Made by a program: the position numbers and the translations under genes | IMG/VR virus record: IMGVR_UViG_2690316066_000016 | Span: 1-13,194 of that record | Direction: 5' to 3' (one strand) | Origin: a virus | Taxonomy: Duplodnaviria > Heunggongvirae > Uroviricota > Caudoviricetes | DNA: 13,194 nt | Notes under the pieces: generated by a model | Database searches by the model: none | Told to the model about the DNA's origin: nothing | Seen by the model: the letters and a program-made list of their open reading frames with translations, nothing else | Shown: in pieces, positions 1 through 13,194 of the stretch | Numbering within the stretch: the stretch's first letter is position 1 | Layout of the letters: each line of letters opens with the position of its first letter

Positions 1-1
1 C

Positions 2-691
2 GCTGAGCTTACCGCTGAGCTTAACATGCGTAAAAAACAATACAACTACTATCGCGACCAGTTATTTAGTTTTGGTGCCCACGATGTTAAACGTCTGAAA
101 TTAGGAGAGCTATGTGTAATTGGAGACGGTTTGCATGGTACTCCAGAATATGACGCCAACGGTGATTATTTCTTTATCAATGGAAACAATTTAGGCTATC
201 AAAAAATATCATTTAACGATAACACAAAAAAGGTTAATGATTCTATGTTTAAAAAACACGGAATTCATTTTGACCCAATAAATACTGTTTTCCTGTCAAT
301 TAATGGCACAATTGGAAATGTTTCCTTTTACAATAATGAGAAGATCGTACTCGGTAAGTCTGTGGCCTATTTTAAAATTAAATCACCTGAACTCCACACT
401 AGATATCTTTTCTATTTCCTGCAGACCAATTACGCAAAACAGTATTTTGAAAATCAAAAAACAGGTTCAACTATTAAAAACTTAGGTTTAAAATCGTTGA
501 GAGCATTTGAAATACCTATCCCATCATACGATGAACAACTTTATATCGTCGCCACGATGGATAAATTTTACAACCTGACAAACTCCATCACCGAAGGTCT
601 CCCGCGTGAAATCGAGTTGCGCCAGAAACAATACGAATACTACCGTGATTTACTGTTCAGTTTCCCGAAACCTGAAACTGTCAGTAATTAA
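2..691 (+). CDS. hsdS: Type I restriction-modification specificity subunit HsdS, 5'-truncated by the window edge (C-terminal target-recognition domain plus conserved tail)
   Basis: Frame opens at the window edge with [22 protein letters not shown] (central conserved region) and ends ...[20 protein letters not shown], the duplicated conserved motif typical of HsdS. The ATG at 26 is internal, not the true start. hsdR follows on the same strand. Confidence 0.8.
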
Positions 692-813
692 TTGACCATT
701 GCTACCGATCGGGCCACCTTAACACCCGGTCAGTATATAGACTATTTTTTTACGCGCCGGAAGTCACTCTTAACGCCCTTCCGGCTCTTGCCAGGCGGCA
801 CAAAGGATGCGCT

Positions 814-3800
814 ATGACTCATCAAACACACACCATTGCTGAATCCAATAACTTTATCGTCCTTGATAAGTACATCAAAGCTGAGCAAACAAGCGACAGC
901 TACCAGAGCGAATCGGACCTGGAACGTGAACTGATTCAGGACCTGCGGAATCAGGGTTATGAATTTATTTCGGTAAAATCACAGTCAGCGATGCAGGCCA
1001 ACGTTCGGGAACAGCTTCAGAGCCTCAATGGTGTGGTGTTTAATGACAGCGAGTGGCGGCGTTTCACGGAGCAGTATCTGGATAACCCGAGCGATGGCAT
1101 TCTGGATAAGACCCGTAAAATCCATATCGACTATATTTGCGACTTTATTTTTGATGACGAGCGTCTTGAGAACATCTATTTGATAGATAAAAAGAATCTC
1201 ATGCGCAATAAGGTGCAGATTATCCAGCAGTTTGAGCAGGCGGGTTCTCATGCTAACCGTTATGACGTCACGATCCTGGTTAATGGCTTACCACTGGTAC
1301 AAATCGAACTGAAAAAGCGCGGCGTGGCGATTCGTGAGGCTTTCAACCAGATACATCGTTACAGTAAAGAGAGTTTTAACAGCGAAAATTCCCTGTTTAA
1401 GTATCTGCAACTGTTTGTCATTTCTAACGGCACCGATACCCGTTACTTTGCCAACACCACAAAGCGCGATAAAAACAGTTTTGACTTCACCATGAACTGG
1501 GCGAAATCAGACAACACGCTGATTAAAGACCTCAAAGATTTTACCGCTACCTTTTTCCAGAAACATACTCTGCTTAATGTTCTGGTGAACTACAGCGTGT
1601 TCGATATTAGCCAGACGCTACTGGTGATGCGACCGTACCAGATTGCCGCTACCGAACGGATCTTATGGAAAATCAACAGTTCCTATAAAGCGAAAAACTG
1701 GTCTAACCCCGAAAGCGGTGGCTTTATCTGGCACACTACCGGTTCCGGTAAAACACTGACCAGCTTTAAAGCCGCGCGCCTGGCAACAGAACTGGACTTT
1801 ATTGATAAAGTCTTCTTTGTGGTCGACAGGAAAGACCTCGATTACCAGACGATGAAGGAATATCAGCGTTTTTCCCCAGACAGCGTCAACGGCTCGGAAA
1901 ATACCGCAGGCCTTAAACGAAATCTGGATAAGGACGATAACAAAATTATCGTCACCACTATTCAGAAACTTAATAACCTGATGAAAGCAGAAAGCGACCT
2001 GCCTGTATACAATCAGCAAGTGGTGTTTATATTTGATGAATGTCACCGCAGCCAGTTTGGAGAAGCGCAGAAAAATCTGAAGAAGAAATTCAAACGCTAT
2101 TATCAGTTTGGTTTTACCGGCACACCTATTTTCCCGGAAAACGCTTTAGGCTCAGAAACGACCGCCAGCGTATTTGGTCGTGAATTGCATTCATATGTGA
2201 TTACCGATGCGATTCGTGATGAAAAAGTGCTCAAATTCAAGGTGGACTATAACGATGTGCGGCCCCAGTTTAAATCTTTAGAGACAGAAACCGACGAGAA
2301 AAAACTGAGTGCGGCTGAAAATCAGCAGGCGTTTCTTCATCCCATGCGTATACAGGAAATTACGCAATATATTCTGAATAACTTCCGCCAGAAGACCCAC
2401 CGTACTTTCCCAGGTTCCAAAGGCTTTAATGCCATGCTGGCAGTGAGTAGCGTGGATGCCGCGAAAGCCTATTACGCGACGTTTAAACGGTTACAAGAGG
2501 AAGCAGCTAATAAATCGGCTACCTATAAACCGCTGCGTGTTGCGACAATCTTCTCCTTTGCCGCCAATGAAGAACAAAATGCCATTGGTGAAATTTCCGA
2601 TGAAACTTTTGATACCAGCGCAATGGACAGCAGTGCTAAAGAGTTTCTTGACGCTGCAATTCGTGAGTATAACAGCTATTTTAAAACTAACTTCAGCACC
2701 GACAGTAACGGTTTTCAGAACTACTATCGTGATTTAGCCCAACGGGTTAAAAATCAGGATATCGATCTGTTAATTGTCGTTGGGATGTTTTTAACCGGCT
2801 TCGACGCTCCAACATTGAACACGCTATTCGTCGATAAAAACTTGCGTTTTCACGGCCTGATGCAGGCATTCTCCCGCACCAACCGCATTTATAACGCCAC
2901 TAAAACCTTCGGTAACATCGTCACTTTCCGGGATCTGGAACGCTCAACCATTGATGCCATAACGCTGTTTGGTGATAAAAATACCAAAAATGTAGTGTTA
3001 GAAAAGAGTTATGCAGAGTATATGGAAGGCTTTACTGATGCTGCCACTGGTGAAGCTAAACGCGGCTTTATGGCAGTAGTTTCAGAACTGGAACAACGGT
3101 TCCCTGACCCTGCCAGTATTGAAAGTGAAAAAGAGAAGAAAGACTTCGTTAAACTGTTTGGTGAATACCTGCGTGCCGAGAACATCCTGCAAAACTATGA
3201 TGAATTTGCCACGCTGAAAGCCCTGCAACAAATCGATCTTAGCGATCCTGTTGCGGTAGAAAAATTCAAAGAAGAACATTATGTGGATGATGAAAAGTTC
3301 GCTGAATTACAAACGATTCGTCTCCCTGCTGAACGCAAGATTCAGGATTATCGTTCTGCCTATAACGATATTCGTGACTGGCAGCGCCGCGAGAAAGAGG
3401 CTGGCAAAAAAGAAAAGTTAACTACTGACTGGGATGACGTGGTTTTTGAAATCGATTTGCTGAAGTCTCAGGAAATAAACCTGGATTATATCCTTGGACT
3501 GATTTTCGAACACAACAGACAAAACAAAGGTAAGGGCGAAATGACCGAAGAGGTCAAGCGCTTAATTCGTTCGAGCCTTGGGAACCGTGCCAAAGAAGGT
3601 CTGGTGGTCGATTTTATTCAACAAACAAACCTGGATGATTTGCCGGATAAAGCCAGCATCATTGACGCGTTTTTTACCTTTGCTCAACGCGAACAGCAAC
3701 GTGAAGCAGAAGCATTGATCAAAGAAGAAAATCTCAATGAAGAGGCGGCGAAACGCTATATTCGCACGTCTTTAAAACGCGAATACGCCACCGAAAATGG

Positions 3801-3930
3801 CACGGAATTAAACGAGACATTGCCAAAACTCAGTCCGTTAAATCCGCAATATAAGACGAAAAAACAGACGGTTTTCCAGAAGATCGTCGCGTTTATTGAG
3901 AAGTTTAAAGGTGTAGGCGGGCAGATATAA
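814..3930 (+). CDS. hsdR: Type I restriction enzyme R subunit HsdR (1038 aa), EcoR124I-like (type IC) by length and context
   Basis: N-terminal PD-(D/E)xK-like nuclease region ([19 protein letters not shown]), helicase motif I HTTGSGKT, motif [12 protein letters not shown] (DExH). AAGGA sits 6 nt upstream of the ATG. The 1038-aa length matches my memory of EcoR124I HsdR (not verified here). Confidence 0.9.
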
Positions 3931-3944
3931 TGTATTAATCCGAA

Positions 3945-3974
3945 CCTGATCTGGCAGATAGCTGTCAGATCAGG
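3945..3974. repeat. Imperfect 13-bp-stem inverted repeat immediately downstream of hsdR (CCTGATCTGGCAG-ATAG-CTGTCAGATCAGG)
   Basis: Read directly from the sequence; one mismatch in the stem and no T-tract after it, so it is not a canonical intrinsic terminator. Possibly an mRNA 3' stabiliser or protein-binding site. Confidence 0.4.
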
Positions 3975-4114
3975 ACTGAGCTAATACAAATTAATATCGA
4001 ACCGAAAATACCAACGCCTGTACCAACATTTTTCGTTTGCGATGGGTTGGAATTGGTTAGCCCTGAGAGAGTTAAAATAGCGAGAAAGATAGGTAACTAA
4101 CGGATTTCAGACAC

Positions 4115-4137
4115 AAAAAAAGCCGCTCTTGAGCGGC
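4115..4137 (-). terminator. Rho-independent terminator on the minus strand, downstream of the tRNA-Leu 3' fragment
   Basis: Plus strand AAAAAAA-GCCGCTC-TT-GAGCGGC; on the minus strand this is a GC hairpin followed by a T7 run, 17 nt after the tRNA-like CCA end. Confidence 0.6.
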
Positions 4138-4154
4138 TCGATTTGCATACGATG

Positions 4155-4185
4155 TGGTGCCGAAGGCCGGACTCGAACCGGCACG
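4155..4185 (-). other. 31-nt 3'-terminal fragment of a tRNA-Leu gene (T-arm, acceptor 3' strand, CCA); putative att core of an integrated element
   Basis: Minus strand reads CGTGCCGGTTCGAGTCCGGCCTTCGGCACCA, matching from memory the 3' end of E. coli tRNA-Leu (leuX-type). Upstream sequence has no matching 5' acceptor strand (no GCCGAAG...), so this is not an intact tRNA. An integrase gene starts 134 nt away. Confidence 0.6.
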
Positions 4186-4318
4186 GGTTATAGCGACTTA
4201 GCTTGCTTCAACAATCATCGTTAACTTGTTGAACTAGTTAGACTAAAGCTCATGACCCCGGCACATTTCACAGACTGTTTAGCCATGAAAAAGCCCCGAC
4301 AACATAACCGGGGTTTGT

Positions 4319-5527
4319 ATGAGTTTCAAGAGAGATCGTTATCTAGTTTTAGATCCCTGCGGGAATTACCTCGTGCGGATAGCTATCCCCAACTACATGC
4401 GCCACCTGTTCCAAGGGAAGCGCTACTTTATGAAAAGCACAGGGACACGCGATGTACGCCAAGCGCGATTGTTTCGGGATGCTATTGCTCTGGAATGGAC
4501 TCGCTTACGGAATCTGCTAAAGCCGCAAGGCGGCTCGTCTGTAGATCAAATCATTGATGAGCTACGCCGTGTCAGTGTGTACGCCAAGGAAGCCCCCACA
4601 TCATTTGGTGCATCAGTTCAGTCTTGCCCTTCCCTACTTAAAATGCGCGATCTGTATCTTCTCCAATACAGCGAGAAGAGAAAGCTAACGACGCTATCCA
4701 AGACCAACAAAGCCGTAGAGATGCTGTTAACCCACCTGAAAAAGAAAGATGTTCAGTTGCGGGATATAAACCGAACCATAGTTACAGGCTGGTTAGATAA
4801 GCTCAAAACTGAGCGAGCGCCCCAAACTATCCAAAACTATATAAGCGCACTGGCACAGATATGGGACCTGGCACGCAATCGCTATCACGATGCGCCACAA
4901 GACAATCCTTGGCGCGGTCATGCGCTCGAAGCAAAAAGCAGCAAGGTCAGCTATGAAGTCTTCGCACCGGGTGAGCTGGCAAAGGTCTATGCTTTGCTTG
5001 ATGACGAGATGAAAGCGGTAACGGCTATTGGTGCATACAGCGGTATGCGGATCAATGAAATATGTACCCTACGTGAAAGCAGTATTAAAACTATCGAGGG
5101 AGTTTTGTGCTTTGAGATCACCGAGGGGAAGACCAAGAGCGCGGCGCGAATCGTCCCAGTACACAGCAAGCTAATCCCCCTCGTGAAATCATTGCTCAAA
5201 ACCACACATAGCGGTTTTCTGTTCTATCACGCATCAATTACAGACCGGGCCGATGGGAAGCGCTCAACGTGGCATACGCAGCAATTCACGCGAGCAAAGC
5301 GTAAAGCTCTTGGCGAGCTTGCCGCAGAGAGAAAAGTGTTTCACTCACTCCGCCATGCTTTTGTGCAACAGCTCGACCGCGCTCAAGTGCAAGAGGATAG
5401 AATCGCGCTACTGGTAGGCCATGAGCGTGGAAGTACAGAAAGTTTCAAAACCTATTCACGAAATAGCGCCTCAACGATTGAACTTAAAAAATACGTCGAA
5501 TTGTTGTCATATAAAGACATCAGGTAG
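4319..5527 (+). CDS. Tyrosine-type site-specific integrase (phage/island integrase)
   Basis: C-terminal catalytic signature: Arg in GMRINEICTLR, HxxR box HSLRHAF, LVGHE, and a Tyr in KTYSRNS about 35 aa after HxxR. Lies next to the tRNA-Leu att-like fragment. The start is uncertain; downstream Met codons are possible. Confidence 0.85.
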   Translation: MSFKRDRYLVLDPCGNYLVRIAIPNYMRHLFQGKRYFMKSTGTRDVRQARLFRDAIALEWTRLRNLLKPQGGSSVDQIIDELRRVSVYAKEAPTSFGASVQSCPSLLKMRDLYLLQYSEKRKLTTLSKTNKAVEMLLTHLKKKDVQLRDINRTIVTGWLDKLKTERAPQTIQNYISALAQIWDLARNRYHDAPQDNPWRGHALEAKSSKVSYEVFAPGELAKVYALLDDEMKAVTAIGAYSGMRINEICTLRESSIKTIEGVLCFEITEGKTKSAARIVPVHSKLIPLVKSLLKTTHSGFLFYHASITDRADGKRSTWHTQQFTRAKRKALGELAAERKVFHSLRHAFVQQLDRAQVQEDRIALLVGHERGSTESFKTYSRNSASTIELKKYVELLSYKDIR

Positions 5528-5578
5528 ATAAAAAACACTTGCGAAATGGATTAATTTTTCACTTAAATTATTTGAGCA

Positions 5579-5605
5579 GGCTGCGCTATTAATTCAAGCG
5601 CAGCC
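5579..5605. terminator. Perfect 9-bp-stem hairpin (GGCTGCGCT-N9-AGCGCAGCC) between the convergent integrase and TIR genes; candidate bidirectional terminator
   Basis: Inverted repeat read from the sequence, located in the 83-bp gap between two convergent stop codons (5527 and 5611). Flanks are not strongly T-rich, so terminator function is inferred from position only. Confidence 0.35.
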
Positions 5606-5610
5606 AATCG

Positions 5611-6225
5611 TTACCATAGTCTAGGTTTAGCTCGGATAGCAGGAACTGTATCTGCATTTCTTTTAACAGCAGGATTCATAATTGCTCGCTTATTAAATGC
5701 TTCATCAATATATGTTTCGCAATCAGCAATAAAATCGGAATACCTTACCACTGCACAATACACTTCCTCATCGGTGTAATGCGGAACTGTTTTTTGAAGA
5801 CGATGATTACCTTGTACCAGATAAGGAAGATATAGTGTATAACCAGTAGAAATCTGCCTTAAACTCACTCCGCAGTTACATCGAAAGTCAGAACATACAG
5901 CATCGGTAAAAACTTCATTCCAGATTTCATCTCTGACGACACCTATCAATCCCGCTGGATTTTCACCCCATAGAGATGCTTGAATTTCTGAGTTCACAAA
6001 TGGACGTTGGGCGGTCTCTCTCCCGATAAGCACAACAGTAACTGTAGTATCAGCGAGATATTCCTCGCGTATCTTACGCATGATGTATTCTTCACTTACA
6101 TCAGTACTAATGTCACCGTCGCTTACGGATTTATCGATAAAAGATTCCCCACCATACGTCTCTATTATACTATCTTTTAAATCCTGTTCATTAGCATGAT
6201 GATAACTTAGAAATGTTTTATGCAT
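5611..6225 (-). CDS. TIR-like domain protein, ThsB-like (DUF1863-type); likely start at the Met codon 6225-6223, with an alternative in-frame ATG at 6237
   Basis: N-terminus KTFLSYHHANEQDL and core TVTVVLIGRETAQRPFVNSEIQASLWGENPAGLIGVV follow the ThsB/TIR-like pattern as I remember it (F-[ILF]-S-[YF]-H...D, then VLIG..T..R.[WF]V..EI with the conserved Glu). GGAG sits 6 nt upstream of the 6225 ATG. Its start overlaps the upstream gene's stop as TAATG. Confidence 0.7.
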   Translation of the reverse strand: MHKTFLSYHHANEQDLKDSIIETYGGESFIDKSVSDGDISTDVSEEYIMRKIREEYLADTTVTVVLIGRETAQRPFVNSEIQASLWGENPAGLIGVVRDEIWNEVFTDAVCSDFRCNCGVSLRQISTGYTLYLPYLVQGNHRLQKTVPHYTDEEVYCAVVRYSDFIADCETYIDEAFNKRAIMNPAVKRNADTVPAIRAKPRLW

Positions 6226-6962
6226 TAGTTGCTCCATTTATCCATGTCAATACTAAACTGGCTGGCAACACTATCTTGAAAGAATTTATTCAGCTCAGTG
6301 AAATCATTAACAAGTTTATTAAAATGATAATAGTAAGTCTGAATTTTACCGATTGGTGTCAGATGATACCTAAGAACAATTGCTTCACCATCAGGTTTCT
6401 CGTCAATTTTAACTTCATCTTTATCTGAGACGTATTTATGCCAGCGCCTATAATTATTTTGGTGCTCAGTCAGAAATGCATTTAGTTTTTTGAGCATAGT
6501 ATTCGCCAACATATATAACTCAAGATCTTTTTTCCTTTTAATATTCAGAACTCGCATCTCAACACGAATAAACTGATAGACCTCGTAGTAAGAATTAAAT
6601 ACCTCATCAAAAGCATCCTGCTGAACGTTTATTTTAAAAAGCGTCCTTTTCGTGTCGAGAAAATTCTGTATAGACTTTATGAAAAGGGCATCAGAGTTAT
6701 CAAAAAGAATATTTAAACCGCCAAAATTAAGCCGTTCAACTTTAAACGAATATTTTCTATTCATCATGCCATCTAATAGAAAGATAGCCACAATGATTAA
6801 TACAACTACAGAAAGTAGAGAACTAAGTACCCCAATATTTTGAAGTAAACGCTTACCGAAGGTTATATCTTCCGACGTTGGTAACTGAACAGTTCCCAAG
6901 AGCGCAATAACAACTATGCAAACAGACCCCCACACAACCCATCTCTTGTACATAAGCATCAT
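6225..6962 (-). CDS. Membrane protein with two N-terminal TM helices and a roughly 180-aa cytoplasmic domain of unknown family; candidate effector/partner of the TIR protein
   Basis: Hydrophobic stretches WVVWGSVCIVVIALLGTV and NIGVLSSLLSVVVLIIVAIFLL, with positive residues before TM1 and after TM2 (N-in/C-in). No family motif recognised in the C-terminal domain. Start ambiguous among three ATGs (6962, 6959, 6953); AGGA is best spaced for the 6953 ATG. Very AT-rich. Confidence 0.6.
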   Translation of the reverse strand: MMLMYKRWVVWGSVCIVVIALLGTVQLPTSEDITFGKRLLQNIGVLSSLLSVVVLIIVAIFLLDGMMNRKYSFKVERLNFGGLNILFDNSDALFIKSIQNFLDTKRTLFKINVQQDAFDEVFNSYYEVYQFIRVEMRVLNIKRKKDLELYMLANTMLKKLNAFLTEHQNNYRRWHKYVSDKDEVKIDEKPDGEAIVLRYHLTPIGKIQTYYYHFNKLVNDFTELNKFFQDSVASQFSIDMDKWSN

Positions 6963-6981
6963 CCTAAAACGCAGTTTAAAA

Positions 6982-7010
6982 ACTATACAACGATGTTTTT
7001 AAGAGTGGAA
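6982..7010 (-). promoter_or_regulatory. Candidate sigma70 promoter for the 2-TM/TIR operon (-35 TTCCAC, 17-nt spacer, -10 TATAGT on the minus strand)
   Basis: Hexamers read by eye on the minus strand upstream of the operon start; the -35 is weak (3 of 6 matches). Not experimentally supported. Confidence 0.3.
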
Positions 7011-7035
7011 GTCCTAGTTATCAGACACATTCTGC

Positions 7036-7066
7036 TTAGCCTACGCATCTCTATTGTGTAGGCTAA
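7036..7066. repeat. Perfect 9-bp inverted repeat (TTAGCCTAC-N13-GTAGGCTAA) between the phage genes and the TIR/TM operon
   Basis: Read from the sequence. Lies 20 nt downstream of the endonuclease VII-like gene stop and just upstream of the candidate promoter: either a terminator hairpin for the phage gene or an operator. Confidence 0.4.
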
Positions 7067-7086
7067 TGCAATGAACTTAAGCCCAG

Positions 7087-7533
7087 CTAAGTAAGTTGCT
7101 CAGTTTTATGGGGATAGATAACTCCTATCCCCTTGTACTGGCGTCGGTAACTTACCAACATTACGCTCATACTGTCGTGGGCCAGTCCACATAAACTTCC
7201 TGCATAATAGCCTCCCTCGGCAGCGTTAGCAGATCGATGCACCACAGCACGCACGCGCCCGGTTCGGTGGCAGTGATCCAGCACGGCAGACCCAAGGCGC
7301 AGCGGCTTACCTGTCACTGCACAGCGTCGGTATTGATAATTCCACAAGAAGACACGGACAGTAGCCACATCAGCGCGACGCAGCTCCAGCCGTCCTGAAC
7401 CATTCAACAGGAAGTGATACACATCATCGAACGCAGCAGAATTTTTAATGCGTTCAGGCAACGGCGTATTGCCGAGATATTCCAGATATCCCCGCATCGC
7501 TTTTCTTAGTAGTTGGTCTGTCCGTGTAACCAT
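7087..7533 (-). CDS. Phage endonuclease VII-like (HNH-superfamily) protein, apparently degenerate in the zinc-ligand positions
   Basis: Motif CAVTGKPL...AVLDHCHRTGRVRAVVHRSANAAEG resembles the endonuclease VII signature (CxxC ... DHxHxTGxxRGxLCxxCN..G), but with CxxT and HxxA where the Cys pairs are expected. GGAG lies 10 nt upstream of the ATG. Confidence 0.5.
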   Translation of the reverse strand: MVTRTDQLLRKAMRGYLEYLGNTPLPERIKNSAAFDDVYHFLLNGSGRLELRRADVATVRVFLWNYQYRRCAVTGKPLRLGSAVLDHCHRTGRVRAVVHRSANAAEGGYYAGSLCGLAHDSMSVMLVSYRRQYKGIGVIYPHKTEQLT

Positions 7534-7805
7534 GATTCAAAGTCTCCACTGTCAGATGCAGCCCGTTTGCAGGCTTCGTATTCTTCGCGCTGGCGTTGGC
7601 ATACCAGAGCATAAAGCTCGACGGCCATCGCATTAACACGTTCGTCACTGATACCATTGCGGCGCATCAGCCCCAGCAGCTTACGAAATTTAGCTTCAAG
7701 CTCAGGCTCTCCGGTATCCATTACCCACTGTTTCAGGTCAGCGAGTGCGCCAGTCATTGGCGGCGGCTCGATGTACCGCCACCTTAATTTAATCGTGGTT
7801 ATCAT
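7506..7805 (-). CDS. Hypothetical phage protein (about 99 aa from the RBS-supported start; the ORF extends to 7853)
   Basis: Open frame with GAGAGGA 8 nt upstream of the ATG at 7805-7803, which overlaps the 3' end of the upstream gene (stop at 7789). No recognisable family. Confidence 0.45.
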   Translation of the reverse strand: MITTIKLRWRYIEPPPMTGALADLKQWVMDTGEPELEAKFRKLLGLMRRNGISDERVNAMAVELYALVCQRQREEYEACKRAASDSGDFESWLHGQTNY

Positions 7806-8214
7806 CTTCTTTATCCTCTCTGTAAGCCGGGTGCATTGCTCGGTATTGCTCAATGGTCAAACCCTCGCTGGCCGCTGCAAACCGTTCCTTTTGCTTACCC
7901 GCCAATCGCAAGGCGCTGTCTCTCCAGCAGAGCAGAAAGAAGATGGTCAGCACCTGTTTACTCAAGCCATCCAGAAGATCGCCAAGTCCTTGCTCAAGCA
8001 GACAGGCACGCCATGCAGCGGCGTGCTCAGTCATCGCACCTACTATCGGGACAGGTGCGCCGAGCATTGTCGCAAGCTGACTCATAACACTATTAGCATC
8101 GCCCGGATGCAGCCGGGGAATAGTCATGCGGCCAGCCTGCGCCAACAGCTCGTCGTACCGCTGGCGGCGTGGGTCATCACCTGCCAGCGACCTAATCGGC
8201 TTTTCATCAGCCAT
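7789..8214 (-). CDS. Hypothetical phage protein (141 aa)
   Basis: Open frame with a strong RBS (GGAGG 8 nt upstream of the ATG at 8214); co-directional and tightly packed with neighbouring phage genes; no family recognised. Confidence 0.5.
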   Translation of the reverse strand: MADEKPIRSLAGDDPRRQRYDELLAQAGRMTIPRLHPGDANSVMSQLATMLGAPVPIVGAMTEHAAAWRACLLEQGLGDLLDGLSKQVLTIFFLLCWRDSALRLAGKQKERFAAASEGLTIEQYRAMHPAYREDKEDDNHD

Positions 8215-8232
8215 TAATGGAACCTCCGAGGA

Positions 8233-8742
8233 TTAGGCAGCCTGCAATAAATCGGCTGGCGTTGAGGGATGGTATCTGGCTTTAGCTTTCAGGTACGCAA
8301 CACGCGCCGCAGCTTCGGTAGTGAATAAGCCAAGGTGATGACGTACACCATCAACACGAATATAAGCCTCCCATTTACTACTACCCTTATTCCAGCTATA
8401 CCCTCTTGCCCTGCGTCGATTCTGGTCGTTTTCCCGCTGCGTAACCAATCGCAGATTGCATAAGCGGTTGTCGTCACGGATACCGTTGATGTGATCGATC
8501 TGCATACCGTGGGGAATAGCACCATGCGCAAGAATCCACGCCACGCGATGGGCTTTTAGCTGGTACTGCTTGCCATCAAGTCGCAGGGCAACTTGACGAT
8601 AGCCATCAGCTCGACGGGTGGAGTCGGCATAGGTGCCAACCTTAACCCGGCGTCGGTTAGCTTTATGTTGCAGGCGGCCTGTCACCGGGTCATATAGGAA
8701 AAGGGAGAGCAGTAGCTCAGGGGCGTAAGCATCATTAACCAT
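8233..8742 (-). CDS. HNH homing endonuclease with a C-terminal AP2-like DNA-binding domain (phage-type)
   Basis: HRVAWILAHGAIPHGMQIDHINGIRDDNRLCNLRLVTQRENDQN is a classic phage HNH (HNH_3-type) motif; C-terminal SKWEAYIRVDGVRHHLGLFTTEAAARVAYLKA resembles an AP2 domain. Confidence 0.8.
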   Translation of the reverse strand: MVNDAYAPELLLSLFLYDPVTGRLQHKANRRRVKVGTYADSTRRADGYRQVALRLDGKQYQLKAHRVAWILAHGAIPHGMQIDHINGIRDDNRLCNLRLVTQRENDQNRRRARGYSWNKGSSKWEAYIRVDGVRHHLGLFTTEAAARVAYLKAKARYHPSTPADLLQAA

Positions 8743-8758
8743 GACTCAGCCCCTCCAG

Positions 8759-9754
8759 TTACACAGCTTGTCGGAAATTGATAACGCAGTCAGGACGACG
8801 CAGCCCAACGTTGAACAGGCGATATGAGTCCATCACCATTGTCATTTCGCGCTCATCATCCCACTGGCGATTAATGACGCTCTGCGCTTCGACCGTCAGC
8901 AGCACAGAGGAAGGTTTAAATAGCGTCGCCCTCGTCAGCGCTTCCTCTGCGGTAACATCATAATCAGCGCCCAGTTCATGCCCGGTGATGGCTTCCTGCG
9001 GGTAACTGTTGAGTTCAATGACTCGCACCCCAGCGACATAGCCAACGCGACGCCATGCGTAATCGTTGCCACTATCCCGGCTGTAACGGACGTTCATCAG
9101 CTTCTTATGCTCCATCAGGATGCTGAACCAAGCCGGGTCGATAAGCAGTACCAGCTCCGCCACCGGAATATCTTTCTCAGTCAGGAATCGATTAACAGCA
9201 GCTTTAATAGCGTGAACCAGCTCATTTGCTGCGTCCTCTTCACTACCCGTGGTCAGGTTGAGCGGGACAACGTTATCCGTAAGCGGGTTAAACGTTGGTT
9301 GCAGTGTCGGCGGTGGTACAAAGTCAGTCGCTTTGATTAGCTGGGTGGTGTGCGCTTCGTCGTAGAATTTAGCGTGAGCAGTACCCATATTGCGGCTCAG
9401 TTCTGCGCGAAAGGTGGGCGCTGTCCAGTCGTCCTGATAGTCAATCGGGACGCGGATATAGCTCAGCGTATCCACAGAGATAACCAACTTGTCCGACTTA
9501 ACGGCGGTAGGCTCCAGCGATTGCCCTGCGGTTCTGCCCTTCACCTCAAGATCACCACCTAGGCGATCAATGCGGTATTGGTTGCTGTTTTTCAGCGGCT
9601 TGTATGTGCTTAGCCCCTCTGCGAGAAAGACGCTCTTTGCCTCAAGGCGGGTCTGAACGTCCCGATCATACGCTTCAATGTGAATGTCGTTGTCAGCATC
9701 CACACCGCCCCAGTGCGGGCGGAATTGGTCAGGGGTATAAACATTGTCAGTCAT
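8759..9754 (-). CDS. Phage major capsid protein, T7 gp10-like (HK97 fold), putative
   Basis: Blocks KSDKLVISVDTLSYIRVPIDY, IKAAVNRFLTEKDIPVAELVLLIDPAWFSILME and RVGYVAGVRVIEL align by eye with T7 gp10 regions as I remember them (KVITIDGLL..., LTKNYVPAADRVFYCDPDSYSAILAA, NVMGFEVVEVPHL). GGAG lies 8 nt upstream of the ATG. Homology is from memory, not a search. Confidence 0.5.
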   Translation of the reverse strand: MTDNVYTPDQFRPHWGGVDADNDIHIEAYDRDVQTRLEAKSVFLAEGLSTYKPLKNSNQYRIDRLGGDLEVKGRTAGQSLEPTAVKSDKLVISVDTLSYIRVPIDYQDDWTAPTFRAELSRNMGTAHAKFYDEAHTTQLIKATDFVPPPTLQPTFNPLTDNVVPLNLTTGSEEDAANELVHAIKAAVNRFLTEKDIPVAELVLLIDPAWFSILMEHKKLMNVRYSRDSGNDYAWRRVGYVAGVRVIELNSYPQEAITGHELGADYDVTAEEALTRATLFKPSSVLLTVEAQSVINRQWDDEREMTMVMDSYRLFNVGLRRPDCVINFRQAV

Positions 9755-9821
9755 AGAAATAGCTCCAGCGCCAGCAGTAGCCAGCGTGATTTATGAAAAG
9801 AGAAAGAGAGAATGGGAGGAA

Positions 9822-10169
9822 TCAGGCAGCAGCTTTTTCAGCAGCCACCTCAAGAATCAGGCCGATAAGCGCGAAAGCGGGCCATTGGGGATTAAGCTCG
9901 TGCAGGTGCGCAACGCCTCCACCAAAAGCATCGCGCATGTCAGCACCAGAGATGCCAGAGCGTTTGGCCGCCCGCCGCAGCAATCGCAGCTCAGAGCTGG
10001 GAACATACGCCGAGGGCATACGCACGCCAAAGCGTGAGGCGAGCCGCCGCCAGTGAGTTTCATCAGCAAAGTCTTGTTTAAGCTGGCTGGCGTTGGCTTT
10101 CCAGTGTTCAATCTTTGCTCTACGGGCAGCCCTAGCCGCTGCCACGTTTTCAGGTGTCAGTAAGGTCAT
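9822..10169 (-). CDS. Hypothetical phage protein (115 aa)
   Basis: Open frame co-oriented with the phage module and preceded by a 160-bp intergenic gap; weak RBS; no family recognised. Confidence 0.4.
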   Translation of the reverse strand: MTLLTPENVAAARAARRAKIEHWKANASQLKQDFADETHWRRLASRFGVRMPSAYVPSSELRLLRRAAKRSGISGADMRDAFGGGVAHLHELNPQWPAFALIGLILEVAAEKAAA

Positions 10170-10329
10170 TGTCAGATCTCAATGCAAAATGGGTTTATGT
10201 GTGGTGTTTGAGAGGTAATTTCGCGTTTTACAGGCGCAGGTATACGAATGCACATCTGGCGATGTACAACGCGATTCAGGCTCTAAAACATAAGGTTAAG
10301 ACGTGGGGAAGACAGGACAGGGCAATTGC

Positions 10330-11409
10330 TTAGCGGCCAGCGCGCTTGCCAGCGGAGCGCTGCGCAACCAGATCGCGGTATTGTTCGTCGTACTGGCGAT
10401 GACCGGGGCCATACCCCGATTGCAGCGCCCACTGCGAAAGCTGGTCATACGCTGCAATAAATTCAGCATGAGACATCCCGACAGGTTGCGCGGTAGGCTG
10501 GCCATGCTGGGCATAACCAGTTTGTGAACCGCCAGCCATACGCTCTTGCAGATACTGAACCGCCCGCTGCATCTGAGCAGGGTCGCCAGACATAACCATC
10601 CGCTCAAGGGTAGATTGCGTCCCGGCATCGAGCGTGCCAGCATATTGCAACATCGCGTCAACTGTACCCTGCCCTAACTGACTTTCTATGGACTGTTGAA
10701 ACTGCCCCATTAACCCTTGCAGCTCGGCGGTATACTCGACAGCCGTCCAGCCATCTTTCATGGTGCGGATCTCTTTTTTACCCGCGTTGACCATTGGCTC
10801 GATGGTGAACGTCATCCCAGGTTTCAGTACGACGTTGGTTTCACGGGAGTCATAGTGCAGCACCTGCGGTTCTTCATGGAAGCCGCGACCAATACCGTGT
10901 CCACAATATTCACGAACGACGGAGAAGCCTTCTGCTTCGACAAACTTCTGAATCGCCGCACCGATTTCGCGCAGGTTAATGCCTGGTTTGACCATGCGCA
11001 GCGCCAGGTACAGGCTTTCTTGCGTGATGCGGCACAGACGTTCGCCCATGATGGTCGGCTTACCGACGATAAACATTTTCGAGGTATCGCCGTGGAAACC
11101 ATCTTTGATTACGGTGACATCAATGTTAACGATATCGCCATCTTTCAGCAGCTTCGCATCGTCCGGGATACCGTGGCACACCACTTCATTAATAGAGATG
11201 CAAACGGATTTCGGATAGCCGTGATAGCCGAGGCAGGCAGAAACCGCGTGTTGTTCATTAACAATGTAATCATTACAGATGCGATCCAGCTCGCCGGTGC
11301 TGACGCCCGGTTTAACATACGGTTCGATCATCTCCAGCACTTCGGCAGCCAGTCGGCCAGCGACGCGCATTTTTTCGATATCTTCTGGGGTCTTGATTGA
11401 GATAGCCAT
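10330..11409 (-). CDS. map: Chimeric ORF: methionine aminopeptidase Map residues 1-222 fused in frame to 137 aa of unrelated (phage-like) sequence; native Map C-terminus (42 aa) missing
   Basis: Translation matches E. coli Map from MAISIKTPEDIEKMRVAG... through ...KKEIRTMKDGWT, then diverges to AVEYTAELQGLMGQFQQ... Nucleotide homology to map stops at about 10743. Position divergent from rpsB matches the known map-rpsB arrangement. Confidence 0.85.
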   Translation of the reverse strand: MAISIKTPEDIEKMRVAGRLAAEVLEMIEPYVKPGVSTGELDRICNDYIVNEQHAVSACLGYHGYPKSVCISINEVVCHGIPDDAKLLKDGDIVNIDVTVIKDGFHGDTSKMFIVGKPTIMGERLCRITQESLYLALRMVKPGINLREIGAAIQKFVEAEGFSVVREYCGHGIGRGFHEEPQVLHYDSRETNVVLKPGMTFTIEPMVNAGKKEIRTMKDGWTAVEYTAELQGLMGQFQQSIESQLGQGTVDAMLQYAGTLDAGTQSTLERMVMSGDPAQMQRAVQYLQERMAGGSQTGYAQHGQPTAQPVGMSHAEFIAAYDQLSQWALQSGYGPGHRQYDEQYRDLVAQRSAGKRAGR

Positions 11410-11554
11410 TAATTCTGTCCATCAGCGTCGGTGATACCGACAATATATATGTAAGTGCCGTCAATGGTATCACACCCGGGCAAATTGAGAATCATTCTGA
11501 ATTTCGCCAAACGTGCCACTGAACGTTTTCTATAATAGAAAATTCAACGTCTGA

Positions 11555-12502
<948 letters not shown>

Positions 12503-12676
12503 TAAGGCTTGATAACTCCCCCAAAATAGTTCGAGTTGCAGAAAGGCGGCAAGCTCGAGAATTCCCGGGAGCTTACATCAGTAAGTGACCGGGATGAGCG
12601 AGCGAAGATAACGCATCTGCGGCGCGAAATATGAAGGGGGAGAGCCCTTATAGACCAGGTAGTACACGTTTGGTTA

Positions 12677-12702
12677 GGGGGCCTGCATATGGCCCCCTTT
12701 TT
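12677..12702 (+). terminator. rpsB-tsf intergenic hairpin with T-tract (GGGGGCC-TGCATAT-GGCCCCC-TTTTT); attenuator or partial terminator
   Basis: Perfect 7-bp GC stem followed by five T residues, between rpsB and tsf as expected for the rpsB-tsf operon. Confidence 0.6.
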
Positions 12703-12759
12703 CACTTTTATATCTGTGCGGTTTAATGCCGGGCAGATCACATCTCCGAGGATTTTAGA

Positions 12760-13137
12760 ATGGCTGAAATTACCGCATCCCTGGTAAAAGAGCTGCGTGA
12801 GCGTACTGGCGCAGGCATGATGGATTGCAAAAAAGCACTGACTGAAGCTAACGGCGACATCGAGCTGGCAATCGAAAACATGCGTAAGTCCGGTGCTATT
12901 AAAGCAGCGAAAAAAGCAGGCAACGTTGCTGCTGACGGCGTGATCAAAACCAAAATCGACAGCAACTACGGCATCATTCTGGAAGTTAACTGCCAGACTG
13001 ACTTCGTTGCAAAAGACGCTGGTTTCCAGGCGTTCGCAGACAAAGTTCTGGACGCAGCTGTTGCTGGCAAAATCACTGACGTTGAAGTTCTGAAAGCACA
13101 GTTCGAAGAAGAACGTGTTGCGCTAAACACAGCCTGA
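12760..13137 (+). pseudogene. tsf: Elongation factor Ts, truncated: only the N-terminal ~122 codons are tsf-like, then three unrelated codons and a stop
   Basis: Translation [43 protein letters not shown]...[11 protein letters not shown] matches E. coli EF-Ts (283 aa), then reads NTA-stop. Nucleotide homology ends at about 13124; the remaining roughly 70 nt are of unknown origin. Confidence 0.85.
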
Positions 13138-13194
13138 ATAAACGGACTGTAGCTGTCGATATCAGCCACCATCACGATGATGTCGCGCGGAGTA

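What the first reader, a model, noticed from the sequence alone, without database searches (positions are those of the whole stretch)
4115..4318. tRNA-Leu 3'-end fragment with its terminator beside an integrase gene: att-like island boundary
A 31-nt exact-looking copy of a tRNA-Leu 3' end (through CCA) lacks the 5' half of the tRNA and is followed on the minus strand by a terminator. An integrase starts 134 nt away on the other strand. Established knowledge: tyrosine integrases recombine within tRNA 3' ends and leave such partial copies at one junction. The intact tRNA and the second repeat are not in this window.
Basis: partly seen in the sequence, partly recalled or inferred. Interest (0 to 1): 0.5.

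Follow-up and report, generated by a model that had tools for sequence, protein, structure and literature searches.

The report
Mobile-element junction in leuX tRNA gene

Summary
Confirmed and ordinary. Window 4155-4185 is an exact 31-nt copy of the 3' end of E. coli leuX (tRNA-Leu CAA), minus strand. It has no 5' half and is followed by a terminator (4139-4120). A tyrosine integrase starts at 4319.

In E. coli genomes without the insert, an intact leuX sits exactly here, and identity to the window stops at 4185. In genomes carrying the same element (99.9% identical over window 1-10755), intact leuX lies 14,660 bp away. The same 31-mer is the direct repeat, with no extra identity on either side.

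Integrase relatives at 73-95% identity, some in otherwise unrelated elements, keep the same 31-mer 133-163 nt upstream of their start codon. So this is the integrase-proximal att junction: the displaced native tRNA 3' end, its terminator, and the element's P arm.

Caveats. The window is a whole 13,194-bp draft contig that is chimeric. It joins bluntly to map-rpsB-tsf at 10743/10744 and to recC at 13124/13125, so the far junction cannot be seen in this assembly. Excision and integration activity is inferred, not shown.

The element itself is more interesting than the att site. It carries a T7-like (Autographiviridae) capsid gene and a variable defence-gene slot, and may be an undescribed phage satellite.

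The parts
814..3930 (+). hsdR (type I restriction subunit). This is the chromosomal, B'-side flank and part of the variable leuX-anchored defence region.
   Evidence: Annotated as HsdR in matching genomes. It directly abuts intact leuX in empty-site genomes.
4113..4139 (-). Intrinsic terminator (stem-loop 4139-4120 plus T tract) downstream of the tRNA fragment. It is the native leuX terminator of this lineage.
   Evidence: Terminator scan. The same sequence follows intact leuX in the empty site L002.
4155..4185 (-). 31-nt att core / direct repeat, equal to leuX positions 55-85 (T arm, 3' acceptor strand, ACCA). It is the displaced 3' fragment of the tRNA gene.
   Evidence: The exact copy also sits at the far junction in L013, L015 and L003.
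4186..4318 (.). Integrase-proximal arm (P arm) of the element. It contains halves of two 10-nt inverted repeats shared with the other arm (4233-4242 and 4285-4294). It also contains a conserved hairpin (4294-4313) immediately before the int start codon.
   Evidence: Homology with elements in other flanking contexts starts at 4155/4156. Repeats in the reconstructed attP. Hairpin.
4319..5527 (+). Tyrosine integrase of 402 aa (DUF6538 N-terminus plus Phage_integrase catalytic domain). Candidate catalytic residues are R244, K271/K273, H342, R345, H368 and Y379.
   Evidence: Pfam and PHROG matches. Alignment to XerC-like/XerA structures. Translation and motif positions.
5611..6962 (-). Variable cargo slot next to int: a ThsB-like TIR protein (5611-6237) and a 245-aa partner with no family match (6225-6962). 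GC content is low (33-38%).
   Evidence: The slot holds AbiTii in E2348/69, and this gene pair has no match in L021.
7087..10743 (-). Remainder of the element present in the contig: endonuclease VII-like, two small ORFs, HNH endonuclease, major head protein (8759-9754), a 115-aa protein, and the 3' part of a scaffold-like gene, cut off at 10743.
10744..13194 (.). Not part of the element. These are chimeric additions: map (3'-truncated), rpsB and tsf (10743/4-13124), then 70 nt of recC (13125-13194).

Best explanation
Window 4113-4318 is the integrase-proximal attachment junction of a ~14.7-kb integrative element inserted into the E. coli leuX (tRNA-Leu CAA) gene.

Proposed mechanism:
- The element's tyrosine integrase (4319-5527) recombined an attP site carrying a 31-nt copy of the leuX 3' end with the chromosomal leuX gene.
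- The exchange happened somewhere inside the 31-nt identity block. The most likely place is the 7-nt T loop, flanked by the inverted 5-bp T-stem halves.
- The element-borne copy now completes an intact leuX at the far, integrase-distal end.
- The original chromosomal 3' end, with its terminator and the hsdR flank, was pushed ~14.7 kb away. It survives here as a promoterless 31-nt fragment.

Shown here: the repeat, the empty site, the regenerated tRNA in sister genomes, and the linkage between integrase and fragment across relatives.

Inferred only: the position of strand exchange, current excision competence, and the roles of the arm repeats and the hairpin before int.
For: - The 31-mer is unique in the window and is an exact leuX 3' end.
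- Empty-site genomes have intact leuX here. The left flank is identical (120/120 nt) and divergence begins exactly after 4185.
- Window 1-10755 is 99.86-99.97% identical to natural draft genomes.
- In L013 and L015 the same element ends at an intact leuX beside ahr. The 31-mers are 14,660 bp apart, with 0 nt of additional identity on either side.
- leuX is identical (85/85 nt) in occupied and empty sites.
- E2348/69 and E. coli 1094 show the same geometry in complete chromosomes, and 1094 and L013 have different left flanks.
- 56 of 5,426 complete E. coli genomes carry the repeat plus P-arm junction, one chromosomal copy each.
- Integrase relatives at 95, 75, 74 and 73% identity keep the identical 31-mer 133-163 nt upstream of int. 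A 65% relative has a different tRNA 3' fragment in the same position. The elements with the 65-75% relatives share no other gene with this one.
- The integrase has the tyrosine-recombinase catalytic domain and motifs.
- Literature: islands split a tRNA gene and regenerate it, and the regenerated target and the displaced fragment mark the island's ends (PMC4383910 abstract). leuX is a recognised integration and defence-island hotspot (PMC7545054; PMC12707154).
Against: - The partner junction and intact leuX are not in this contig. They cannot be, because the contig is chimeric from 10744. For this particular isolate the full structure is inferred from near-identical copies.
- No excisionase was recognised among the small ORFs.
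- The 10-nt arm inverted repeats are not conserved in the E2348/69 far arm.
- There is no experimental evidence of integration or excision.
- The integrase lies beside the displaced fragment rather than beside the intact tRNA, which is the opposite of the P4-like arrangement seen at the same locus. This does not contradict the model but is less usual.
Confidence: 0.93

Rival explanations
1. The junction was made by a different recombinase or belongs to a neighbouring island. In this reading the fragment is an internal boundary of a tandem island array at leuX, generated by the P4-like integrase of an adjacent island or by the element's small serine recombinase, and the adjacent integrase is a bystander.
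For: leuX does carry tandem islands. A P4-like integrase follows the distal repeat in L013, and an AlpA-bearing island with a 24-nt partial repeat lies on the other side in L011. The element also encodes a 189-aa resolvase/invertase-type serine recombinase.
Against: - In the window's own context the flank is hsdR, with no P4-like integrase. The same flank abuts intact leuX in empty-site genomes.
- Integrase relatives at 65-75% identity sit in elements with no other shared gene. All four lack a close homologue of the serine recombinase; L024 has only a 29%-identical match. All four nevertheless keep a tRNA 3' fragment at the same distance from int.
- Small resolvase/invertase-type serine recombinases are not known to integrate into tRNA genes (established knowledge).
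Confidence: 0.04
2. The truncated tRNA is an assembly artefact of this chimeric draft contig.
For: The contig has two blunt joins between unlinked chromosomal regions, at 10743/10744 and 13124/13125. The resulting fusion ORF is found on this contig only.
Against: The identical fragment-arm-integrase junction is present in 56 complete E. coli chromosomes. It is also present in the eight independent draft assemblies inspected (L004-L010, L013), and the exact integrase is indexed in 68 collection blocks.
Confidence: 0.01
3. The fragment is a decayed tRNA pseudogene left by a deletion and is unrelated to site-specific integration.
For: Only 31 nt of the tRNA remain, and nothing in the window itself shows a second copy.
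Against: - The break coincides to the base with the end of homology to empty-site genomes and with the start of homology to the element in other flanking contexts.
- The far end of the element carries the same 31 nt within an intact leuX.
- The fragment is 100% identical to leuX despite being non-functional.
Confidence: 0.02

Closest known systems
tRNA-gene genomic islands as defined by Islander (tyrosine-integrase islands that split and regenerate a tDNA)
   Same: A displaced 3' tRNA fragment at one end and a regenerated intact tRNA at the other. There is an exact direct repeat, an adjacent tyrosine integrase, and empty sites in sister genomes (PMC4383910 abstract seen).
   Different: Nothing essential. 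The integrase lies beside the displaced fragment rather than beside the regenerated tRNA.
Satellite phage P4 and P4-like islands integrated at leuX (for example KpLE2 intB in K-12, PAI II of strain 536)
   Same: The same target gene and the same 3'-end region of leuX. P4-like islands occur in tandem with this element (leuX islands listed in PMC7545054). P4's use of leuX is from my own knowledge of Pierson & Kahn 1987 and was not re-read here.
   Different: - The integrase family differs: DUF6538 N-terminus here, versus the Arm-DNA-bind_3 domain of the P4-like neighbour.
- The P4-like integrase lies directly downstream of the tRNA sequence in the same orientation, whereas this one diverges from the displaced fragment.
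- The repeat is 31 nt here, versus 24 nt at the neighbouring island's boundary.
E. coli defence-island hotspot #37 anchored by leuX
   Same: The window shows type I R-M (hsdS, hsdR) plus an integrase element carrying a TIR defence gene at leuX, as described for this hotspot (PMC12707154).
   Different: The review describes the mobilising integrase at the tRNA anchor. Here a second, distinct integrase element is nested between leuX and the R-M genes.
Capsid-forming phage satellites (cfPICI) and other capsid-size-redirecting satellites
   Same: A small (14.7 kb) integrase-bearing element with a major head protein, a scaffold-like protein, an HNH endonuclease, a helicase and a defence cargo slot.
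   Different: - No portal, protease, terminase, AlpA or primase was recognised.
- The capsid is of the virulent Autographiviridae (Bonnellvirus) type, 57% identical.
- Satellite behaviour is untested.

Membership tests
tRNA-gene att junction of a tyrosine-integrase island | Displaced fragment identical to the 3' end of a tRNA gene through CCA, lacking the 5' part | tested here: met
   31/31 identity to leuX positions 55-85. No tRNA called by ARAGORN or Rfam. The next 54 nt match at only 20/54.
tRNA-gene att junction of a tyrosine-integrase island | Regenerated intact tRNA gene with the same direct repeat at the other end of the element (tested in near-identical copies) | tested here: met
   L013 and L015 (the same element), L003 (E2348/69) and L019 (E. 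coli 1094) all have an intact tRNA-Leu(CAA) at the far end. The exact 31-mer sits at both junctions in L013, L015 and L003. The repeats are 14,660 bp apart in L013.
tRNA-gene att junction of a tyrosine-integrase island | Regenerated tRNA and second repeat present in the same genome as this window | not testable with these tools
   The window is a complete 13,194-bp contig that becomes chimeric at 10744. The other contigs of GCA_001373235.1 could not be retrieved.
tRNA-gene att junction of a tyrosine-integrase island | Unoccupied target (attB) in related genomes, with the break exactly at the repeat | tested here: met
   L002 (ESBL 15) and seven other listed genomes (H13-H20 in all) have intact leuX here. 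The left flank is identical at 120/120 nt and there are 0 identical nt to the right of the core.
tRNA-gene att junction of a tyrosine-integrase island | Adjacent tyrosine recombinase with the catalytic domain and R..K..HxxR..H..Y motifs | tested here: met
   PF00589 at 2.3e-16 and phrog_1 at 4e-34. Alignment to XerC-like/XerA structures covers R244, H342, R345, H368 and Y379.
tRNA-gene att junction of a tyrosine-integrase island | Integrase and att fragment co-inherited when the cargo differs | tested here: met
   L022, L023, L025 (73-75% identity) and L024 (65%) share only int with this element. L022, L023 and L025 keep the leuX 31-mer; L024 has another tRNA's 3' fragment. In all four the fragment sits at the same distance from int.
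tRNA-gene att junction of a tyrosine-integrase island | Demonstrated excision or integration (circular attP form, restored attB) | not testable with these tools
   Needs PCR or long reads on cultures, or a recombination assay.
P4-like integrase island / satellite P4 | P4-type integrase with the Arm-DNA-bind_3 (PF13356) N-terminal domain, placed directly downstream of the tRNA in the same orientation | tested here: not met
   The integrase has a DUF6538 N-terminus and no PF13356 hit. It is transcribed away from the displaced fragment. A genuine P4-like integrase with PF13356 is seen next door in L013.
cfPICI / PICI phage satellites | Integrase plus AlpA, a replication module (primase/rep) and a packaging module; for cfPICI also capsid, protease, portal, head-tail connectors, HNH and terminase | tested here: inconclusive
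   Present: integrase, major head protein, scaffold-like protein, HNH and a RecQ/DpdF-like helicase. Not detected: AlpA, primase, portal, protease and terminase, apart from one sub-threshold PF11123 hit at E=0.0028.
Thoeris defence system (cargo gene) | ThsB TIR protein together with a ThsA (SIR2 or Macro/SLOG) effector | tested here: inconclusive
   The ThsB_TIR domain is met (PF08937 at 1.3e-14; PADLOC ThsB at 1.2e-10). The 245-aa neighbour matches nothing in Pfam, PHROGs, PADLOC or NCBIfam.

The most novel reading that the evidence does not exclude
The element bounded by this att site may be an undescribed family of phage satellites that parasitise virulent T7-like (Autographiviridae, Bonnellvirus-type) coliphages.

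- It is 14.66 kb, about 0.35 of the 42.3-kb Lidtsur genome. That is the classic one-third size ratio of capsid-redirecting satellites.
- It encodes its own Bonnellvirus-like major head protein (57% identity) and a scaffold-like protein. No portal, terminase or tail genes were recognised.
- It carries a swappable defence slot next to int (ThsB-TIR pair, or AbiTii).

I found no paper describing it.
Probability: 0.3. Interest if true: 0.6.

Novelty: new member of a known kind. Interest (0 to 1): 0.15.

Why it matters
As an att site it matters little. It is a clean worked example of the textbook rule that a displaced tRNA 3' fragment beside an integrase marks an island end, and it sits at leuX, one of the best-known integration and defence hotspots of E. 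coli.

It has three practical uses:
- It defines the ends and the 31-nt core of a ~14.7-kb element present in about 1% of complete E. coli genomes, including the reference EPEC strain E2348/69.
- It flags the source contig as chimeric.
- It points to an element with a T7-like capsid gene and a variable defence slot. If that element proved to be a satellite of virulent podoviruses, it would be of real interest.

Tried and rejected
- BLAST suggested a 13-nt microhomology at the element/map join (10743-10755). Base-by-base comparison shows only 1 ambiguous nt, so I retract that earlier notebook note.
- I asked whether the P arm just inside the 31-mer is a decayed copy of the leuX anticodon arm, which would suggest an ancestral 65-nt block. 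Identity is 14/35 in fixed register, p about 0.04-0.14, so this is not convincing.
- I asked whether relatives with 65-66-nt blocks use the anticodon loop while this element uses the T loop (a sublocation switch). A plasmid-borne relative has a 44-45-nt block ending in the variable arm. The block's inner boundary is therefore simply variable. The parsimonious reading is that all relatives exchange strands within the shared 31 nt. This remains unresolved.
- I tried to obtain the far junction of the L022-type element. The IMG/VR contig ends before it.
- Arm-type repeats: two 10-nt inverted pairs occur in the reconstructed attP, but the far-arm halves are not conserved in E2348/69. They are not claimed as binding sites.
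- I looked for a terminator after the regenerated leuX inside the element. None was found by the simple scan.
- Literature searches for a description of this element, its integrase family (DUF6538), or a leuX satellite with a capsid returned nothing relevant. The E2348/69 genome paper and Williams 2002 are not held in the library.
- Only the capsid, plus a weak endonuclease VII match, is shared with phage Lidtsur at the BLAST level.

Full report
**1. What is in the sequence**

- Window 4155-4185 reads TGGTGCCGAAGGCCGGACTCGAACCGGCACG. On the minus strand this is CGTGCCGGTTCGAGTCCGGCCTTCGGCACCA.
- That sequence is positions 55-85 of the 85-nt E. coli leuX tRNA-Leu(CAA). It covers three bases of the variable arm, the T arm (GCCGG-TTCGAGT-CCGGC), the 3' acceptor strand, the discriminator base and CCA.
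- The 31-mer occurs once in the window even with three mismatches allowed. None was expected in 200 shuffles.
- ARAGORN calls no tRNA in the window, and Rfam gives no tRNA match at E<=1. The 54 nt where the 5' part of the tRNA should be match leuX at only 20/54 positions.
- Downstream of the fragment, on the minus strand, is a terminator-like hairpin with a T tract at 4139-4120.
- A 402-aa ORF starts at 4319 on the plus strand. It has a Phage_integrase catalytic domain (PF00589, 2.3e-16), a DUF6538 N-terminus and a strong PHROG integrase match.
- Alignment to solved XerC-like and XerA recombinases covers the conserved R244, H342/R345, H368 and Y379 positions.
The only refinement is that the repeat spans 4155-4185.

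**2. Where it comes from**

- The window is E. coli. Positions 1-4185 (hsdS, hsdR, terminator and the 31-mer) are 100% identical, or differ at a single base, to the best-matching complete E. coli genomes listed.
- In eight of those listed genomes (H13-H20) an intact tRNA-Leu is annotated exactly where the match ends.
- In strain ESBL 15 the order is hsdM-hsdS-hsdR, terminator, leuX, ahr, yjgR, lptG, lptF, pepA.
- Aligning this empty site with the window gives 120/120 identical bases to the left of the core, 31/31 in the core, and zero to the right. Something has been inserted into leuX precisely at the inner edge of the 31-mer.

**3. The inserted element and its other end**

- The exact integrase protein is indexed in 68 blocks of the public assembly collection; 24 contigs were read. 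Window 1-10755 is 99.86-99.97% identical to several natural draft genomes.
- I fetched the region around the window's 115-aa protein in those genomes. In two contigs (L013, L015) the element runs from the 31-mer beside the integrase to an intact tRNA-Leu(CAA) next to ahr.
- The 31-mer is present exactly twice in each of those two loci. In L013 the copies are 14,660 bp apart.
- The two junctions share no identity beyond the 31 nt on either side.
- leuX is identical at 85/85 positions in the occupied and empty configurations. The element-borne copy therefore restores the gene perfectly.
- The related element of EPEC E2348/69 (about 90-96% identical over the aligned segments) shows the same geometry in a complete chromosome, with the 31-mer at both ends.
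- E. coli 1094 also shows it. There the left flank is different, and homology to the window begins at 4156.
- In L013 the flank beyond the fragment is different again: a P4-like integrase island.
- 56 of 5,426 complete E. coli genomes carry the repeat plus arm junction, always as one chromosomal copy.

**4. Is the adjacent integrase responsible?**

- A scan of viral contigs found five relatives of the integrase.
- Those at 95, 75, 74 and 73% identity all have the identical 31-mer 133-163 nt upstream of the start codon. Again no intact tRNA is nearby.
- The 65% relative has a different tRNA-like 3' end (T arm, acceptor strand, CCA) in the same position.
- The elements carrying the 65-75% relatives share no other gene with this one. 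The integrase and the tRNA fragment therefore travel together as a module.
- This is the strongest available argument, short of an experiment, that this integrase made this junction. It argues against the element's small serine recombinase and against a neighbouring P4-like integrase.

**5. Mechanism**

Established knowledge is that tyrosine-integrase islands split a tRNA gene and regenerate it from island sequence. The regenerated gene and the displaced fragment then mark the island's ends (Islander paper PMC4383910, abstract seen). Exchange usually happens at the symmetric anticodon loop or T loop, or at the asymmetric 3' end (bioRxiv 10.1101/2020.11.02.365908).

Here the identity block begins three bases 5' of the T stem and runs to CCA.
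- *Inference:* strand exchange occurs within this block. The most likely place is the 7-nt T loop between the inverted T-stem halves.
- *Shown:* the fragment in the window is the original chromosomal 3' end, still attached to its terminator and the hsdR flank. The regenerated leuX is at the integrase-distal end.
- The integrase therefore diverges from the displaced fragment. This is the reverse of the P4-like arrangement (tRNA followed directly by int in the same orientation) seen at the same locus.

Relatives have longer identity blocks: 44-45 nt on plasmid pCP53-92k and 65-66 nt in three viral contigs. The 31-mer is the common denominator. I considered a switch of sublocation between subfamilies but cannot support it.

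Other features of the arm are recorded but not interpreted:
- The reconstructed attP has two 10-nt inverted repeat pairs across the arms. They are not conserved in E2348/69.
- A hairpin (4294-4313) followed by TTTnnATG directly precedes the int start codon and is conserved in all relatives. It could affect integrase expression, but this is speculation.

**6. Caveat about the window**

- The window is the entire contig CDRY01000009.1 (13,194 bp) of assembly GCA_001373235.1.
- From 10743/10744 it switches, with at most one ambiguous base, from the element's scaffold-like gene to the middle of map. It continues through rpsB into tsf at 100% identity to the E. coli core genome.
- At 13124/13125 it switches bluntly into recC.
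- These three regions lie far apart on E. coli chromosomes. The resulting 359-aa fusion ORF exists on this contig only.
- The Rfam hits t44 and CssrA belong to the map-rpsB-tsf piece.
- The contig is almost certainly chimeric. The element's remaining ~8.4 kb and the regenerated leuX cannot be seen for this isolate.
- The att junction itself is not an artefact, because it recurs in 56 complete genomes.

**7. Comparison with what is known, and novelty**

- leuX is one of the most frequently used tRNA integration sites in E. coli (PMC7545054). It anchors defence-island hotspot #37, which often contains type I R-M systems (PMC12707154). The window's hsdS-hsdR flank and the TIR cargo fit that picture.
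- The junction passes every testable criterion for a tRNA-gene att site.
- It is not a P4-like island. The integrase has a different N-terminal domain and the opposite placement.
- I found no publication describing this element or its integrase family. It is a new member of a very well-known kind, and I score interest at 0.15.

**8. What may deserve a second look**

The element itself is odder than its att site.
- Gene content: a major head protein 57% identical to that of virulent Autographiviridae coliphages of the genus Bonnellvirus; a scaffold-like protein; HNH and endonuclease VII-like nucleases; a RecQ/DpdF-like helicase; and a small serine recombinase.
- Cargo slot: next to int there is a variable slot. 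It holds a ThsB-TIR gene with an unknown partner in this contig and in E. coli 1094, and AbiTii in E2348/69. That gene pair has no match in L021.
- Size: 14.66 kb is 0.35 of the 42.3-kb Bonnellvirus genome.
- A satellite of virulent T7-like phages is a reading the data do not exclude. I give it probability about 0.3. It needs the experiments listed under next steps.

Noticed in passing
window 10743-13194: The window is a whole draft contig (CDRY01000009.1, GCA_001373235.1) with two blunt joins between unlinked E. coli regions. At 10743/10744 the element's scaffold-like gene joins a 3'-truncated map, giving a 359-aa fusion ORF at 10330-11409. At 13124/13125 tsf joins recC. It is probably a chimeric assembly or library artefact. 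The Rfam hits t44 (11663-11749) and CssrA (12588-12697) belong to the map-rpsB-tsf piece.
   Followed up: yes
window 5611-6962 (minus strand): A low-GC (33-38%) two-gene cargo lies directly after int: a ThsB-like TIR protein (208 aa) and a 245-aa protein with no match in Pfam, PHROGs, PADLOC or NCBIfam. The same slot holds an AbiTii gene in E2348/69, and this gene pair has no match in L021. This suggests a swappable defence hotspot, possibly a Thoeris-like system with a novel effector.
   Followed up: partly
window 7087-10743; full element L013 1356-16015: The 14.66-kb element encodes a major head protein 57% identical to that of virulent Autographiviridae (Bonnellvirus, e.g. phage Lidtsur, 42.3 kb). 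It also encodes a scaffold-like protein, HNH and endonuclease VII-like nucleases, a RecQ/DpdF-like helicase and a small serine recombinase. No portal, terminase or tail genes were recognised. It may be an undescribed satellite of T7-like phages; no paper was found.
   Followed up: partly
L022 9838-9902, L023/L025 9808-9873, L047 2501-2545: Relatives of the integrase carry longer leuX-identical blocks: 65-66 nt in three viral contigs and 44-45 nt on E. coli plasmid pCP53-92k, where the block sits between two divergent integrase genes. The window type has 31 nt. The inner boundary of the identity block is therefore variable within one integrase family.
   Followed up: partly
L013 15985-17451; L011 1332-1355: Islands are stacked in tandem at leuX. 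In L013 a P4-like integrase (Arm-DNA-bind_3 domain) follows the distal 31-mer. In L011, L012, L014 and L016 another island lies between leuX and this element, and the boundary is a 24-nt partial repeat, GTTCGAGTCCGGCCTTCGGCACCA. An AlpA gene was called in that island in L011, L014 and L016.
   Followed up: partly
window 4294-4313: A hairpin (CCCC..GGGG) followed by TTTnnATG lies immediately before the int start codon. It is conserved in all integrase relatives aligned (73-96% identity). On the minus strand of the window type it also reads as a terminator. It may regulate int expression or block antisense read-through.
   Followed up: no
L019 about 9990-10030: In E. coli 1094 the displaced leuX fragment carries a threefold tandem duplication of an 8-nt unit (GGTGCGAA) inside the acceptor-stem part. 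This is consistent with the fragment being non-functional and free to drift.
   Followed up: no
L013 1356-1900: No terminator-like site was found downstream of the regenerated leuX inside the element. The native terminator stays with the displaced fragment, so leuX 3' processing or termination in lysogens may depend on element sequence.
   Followed up: partly
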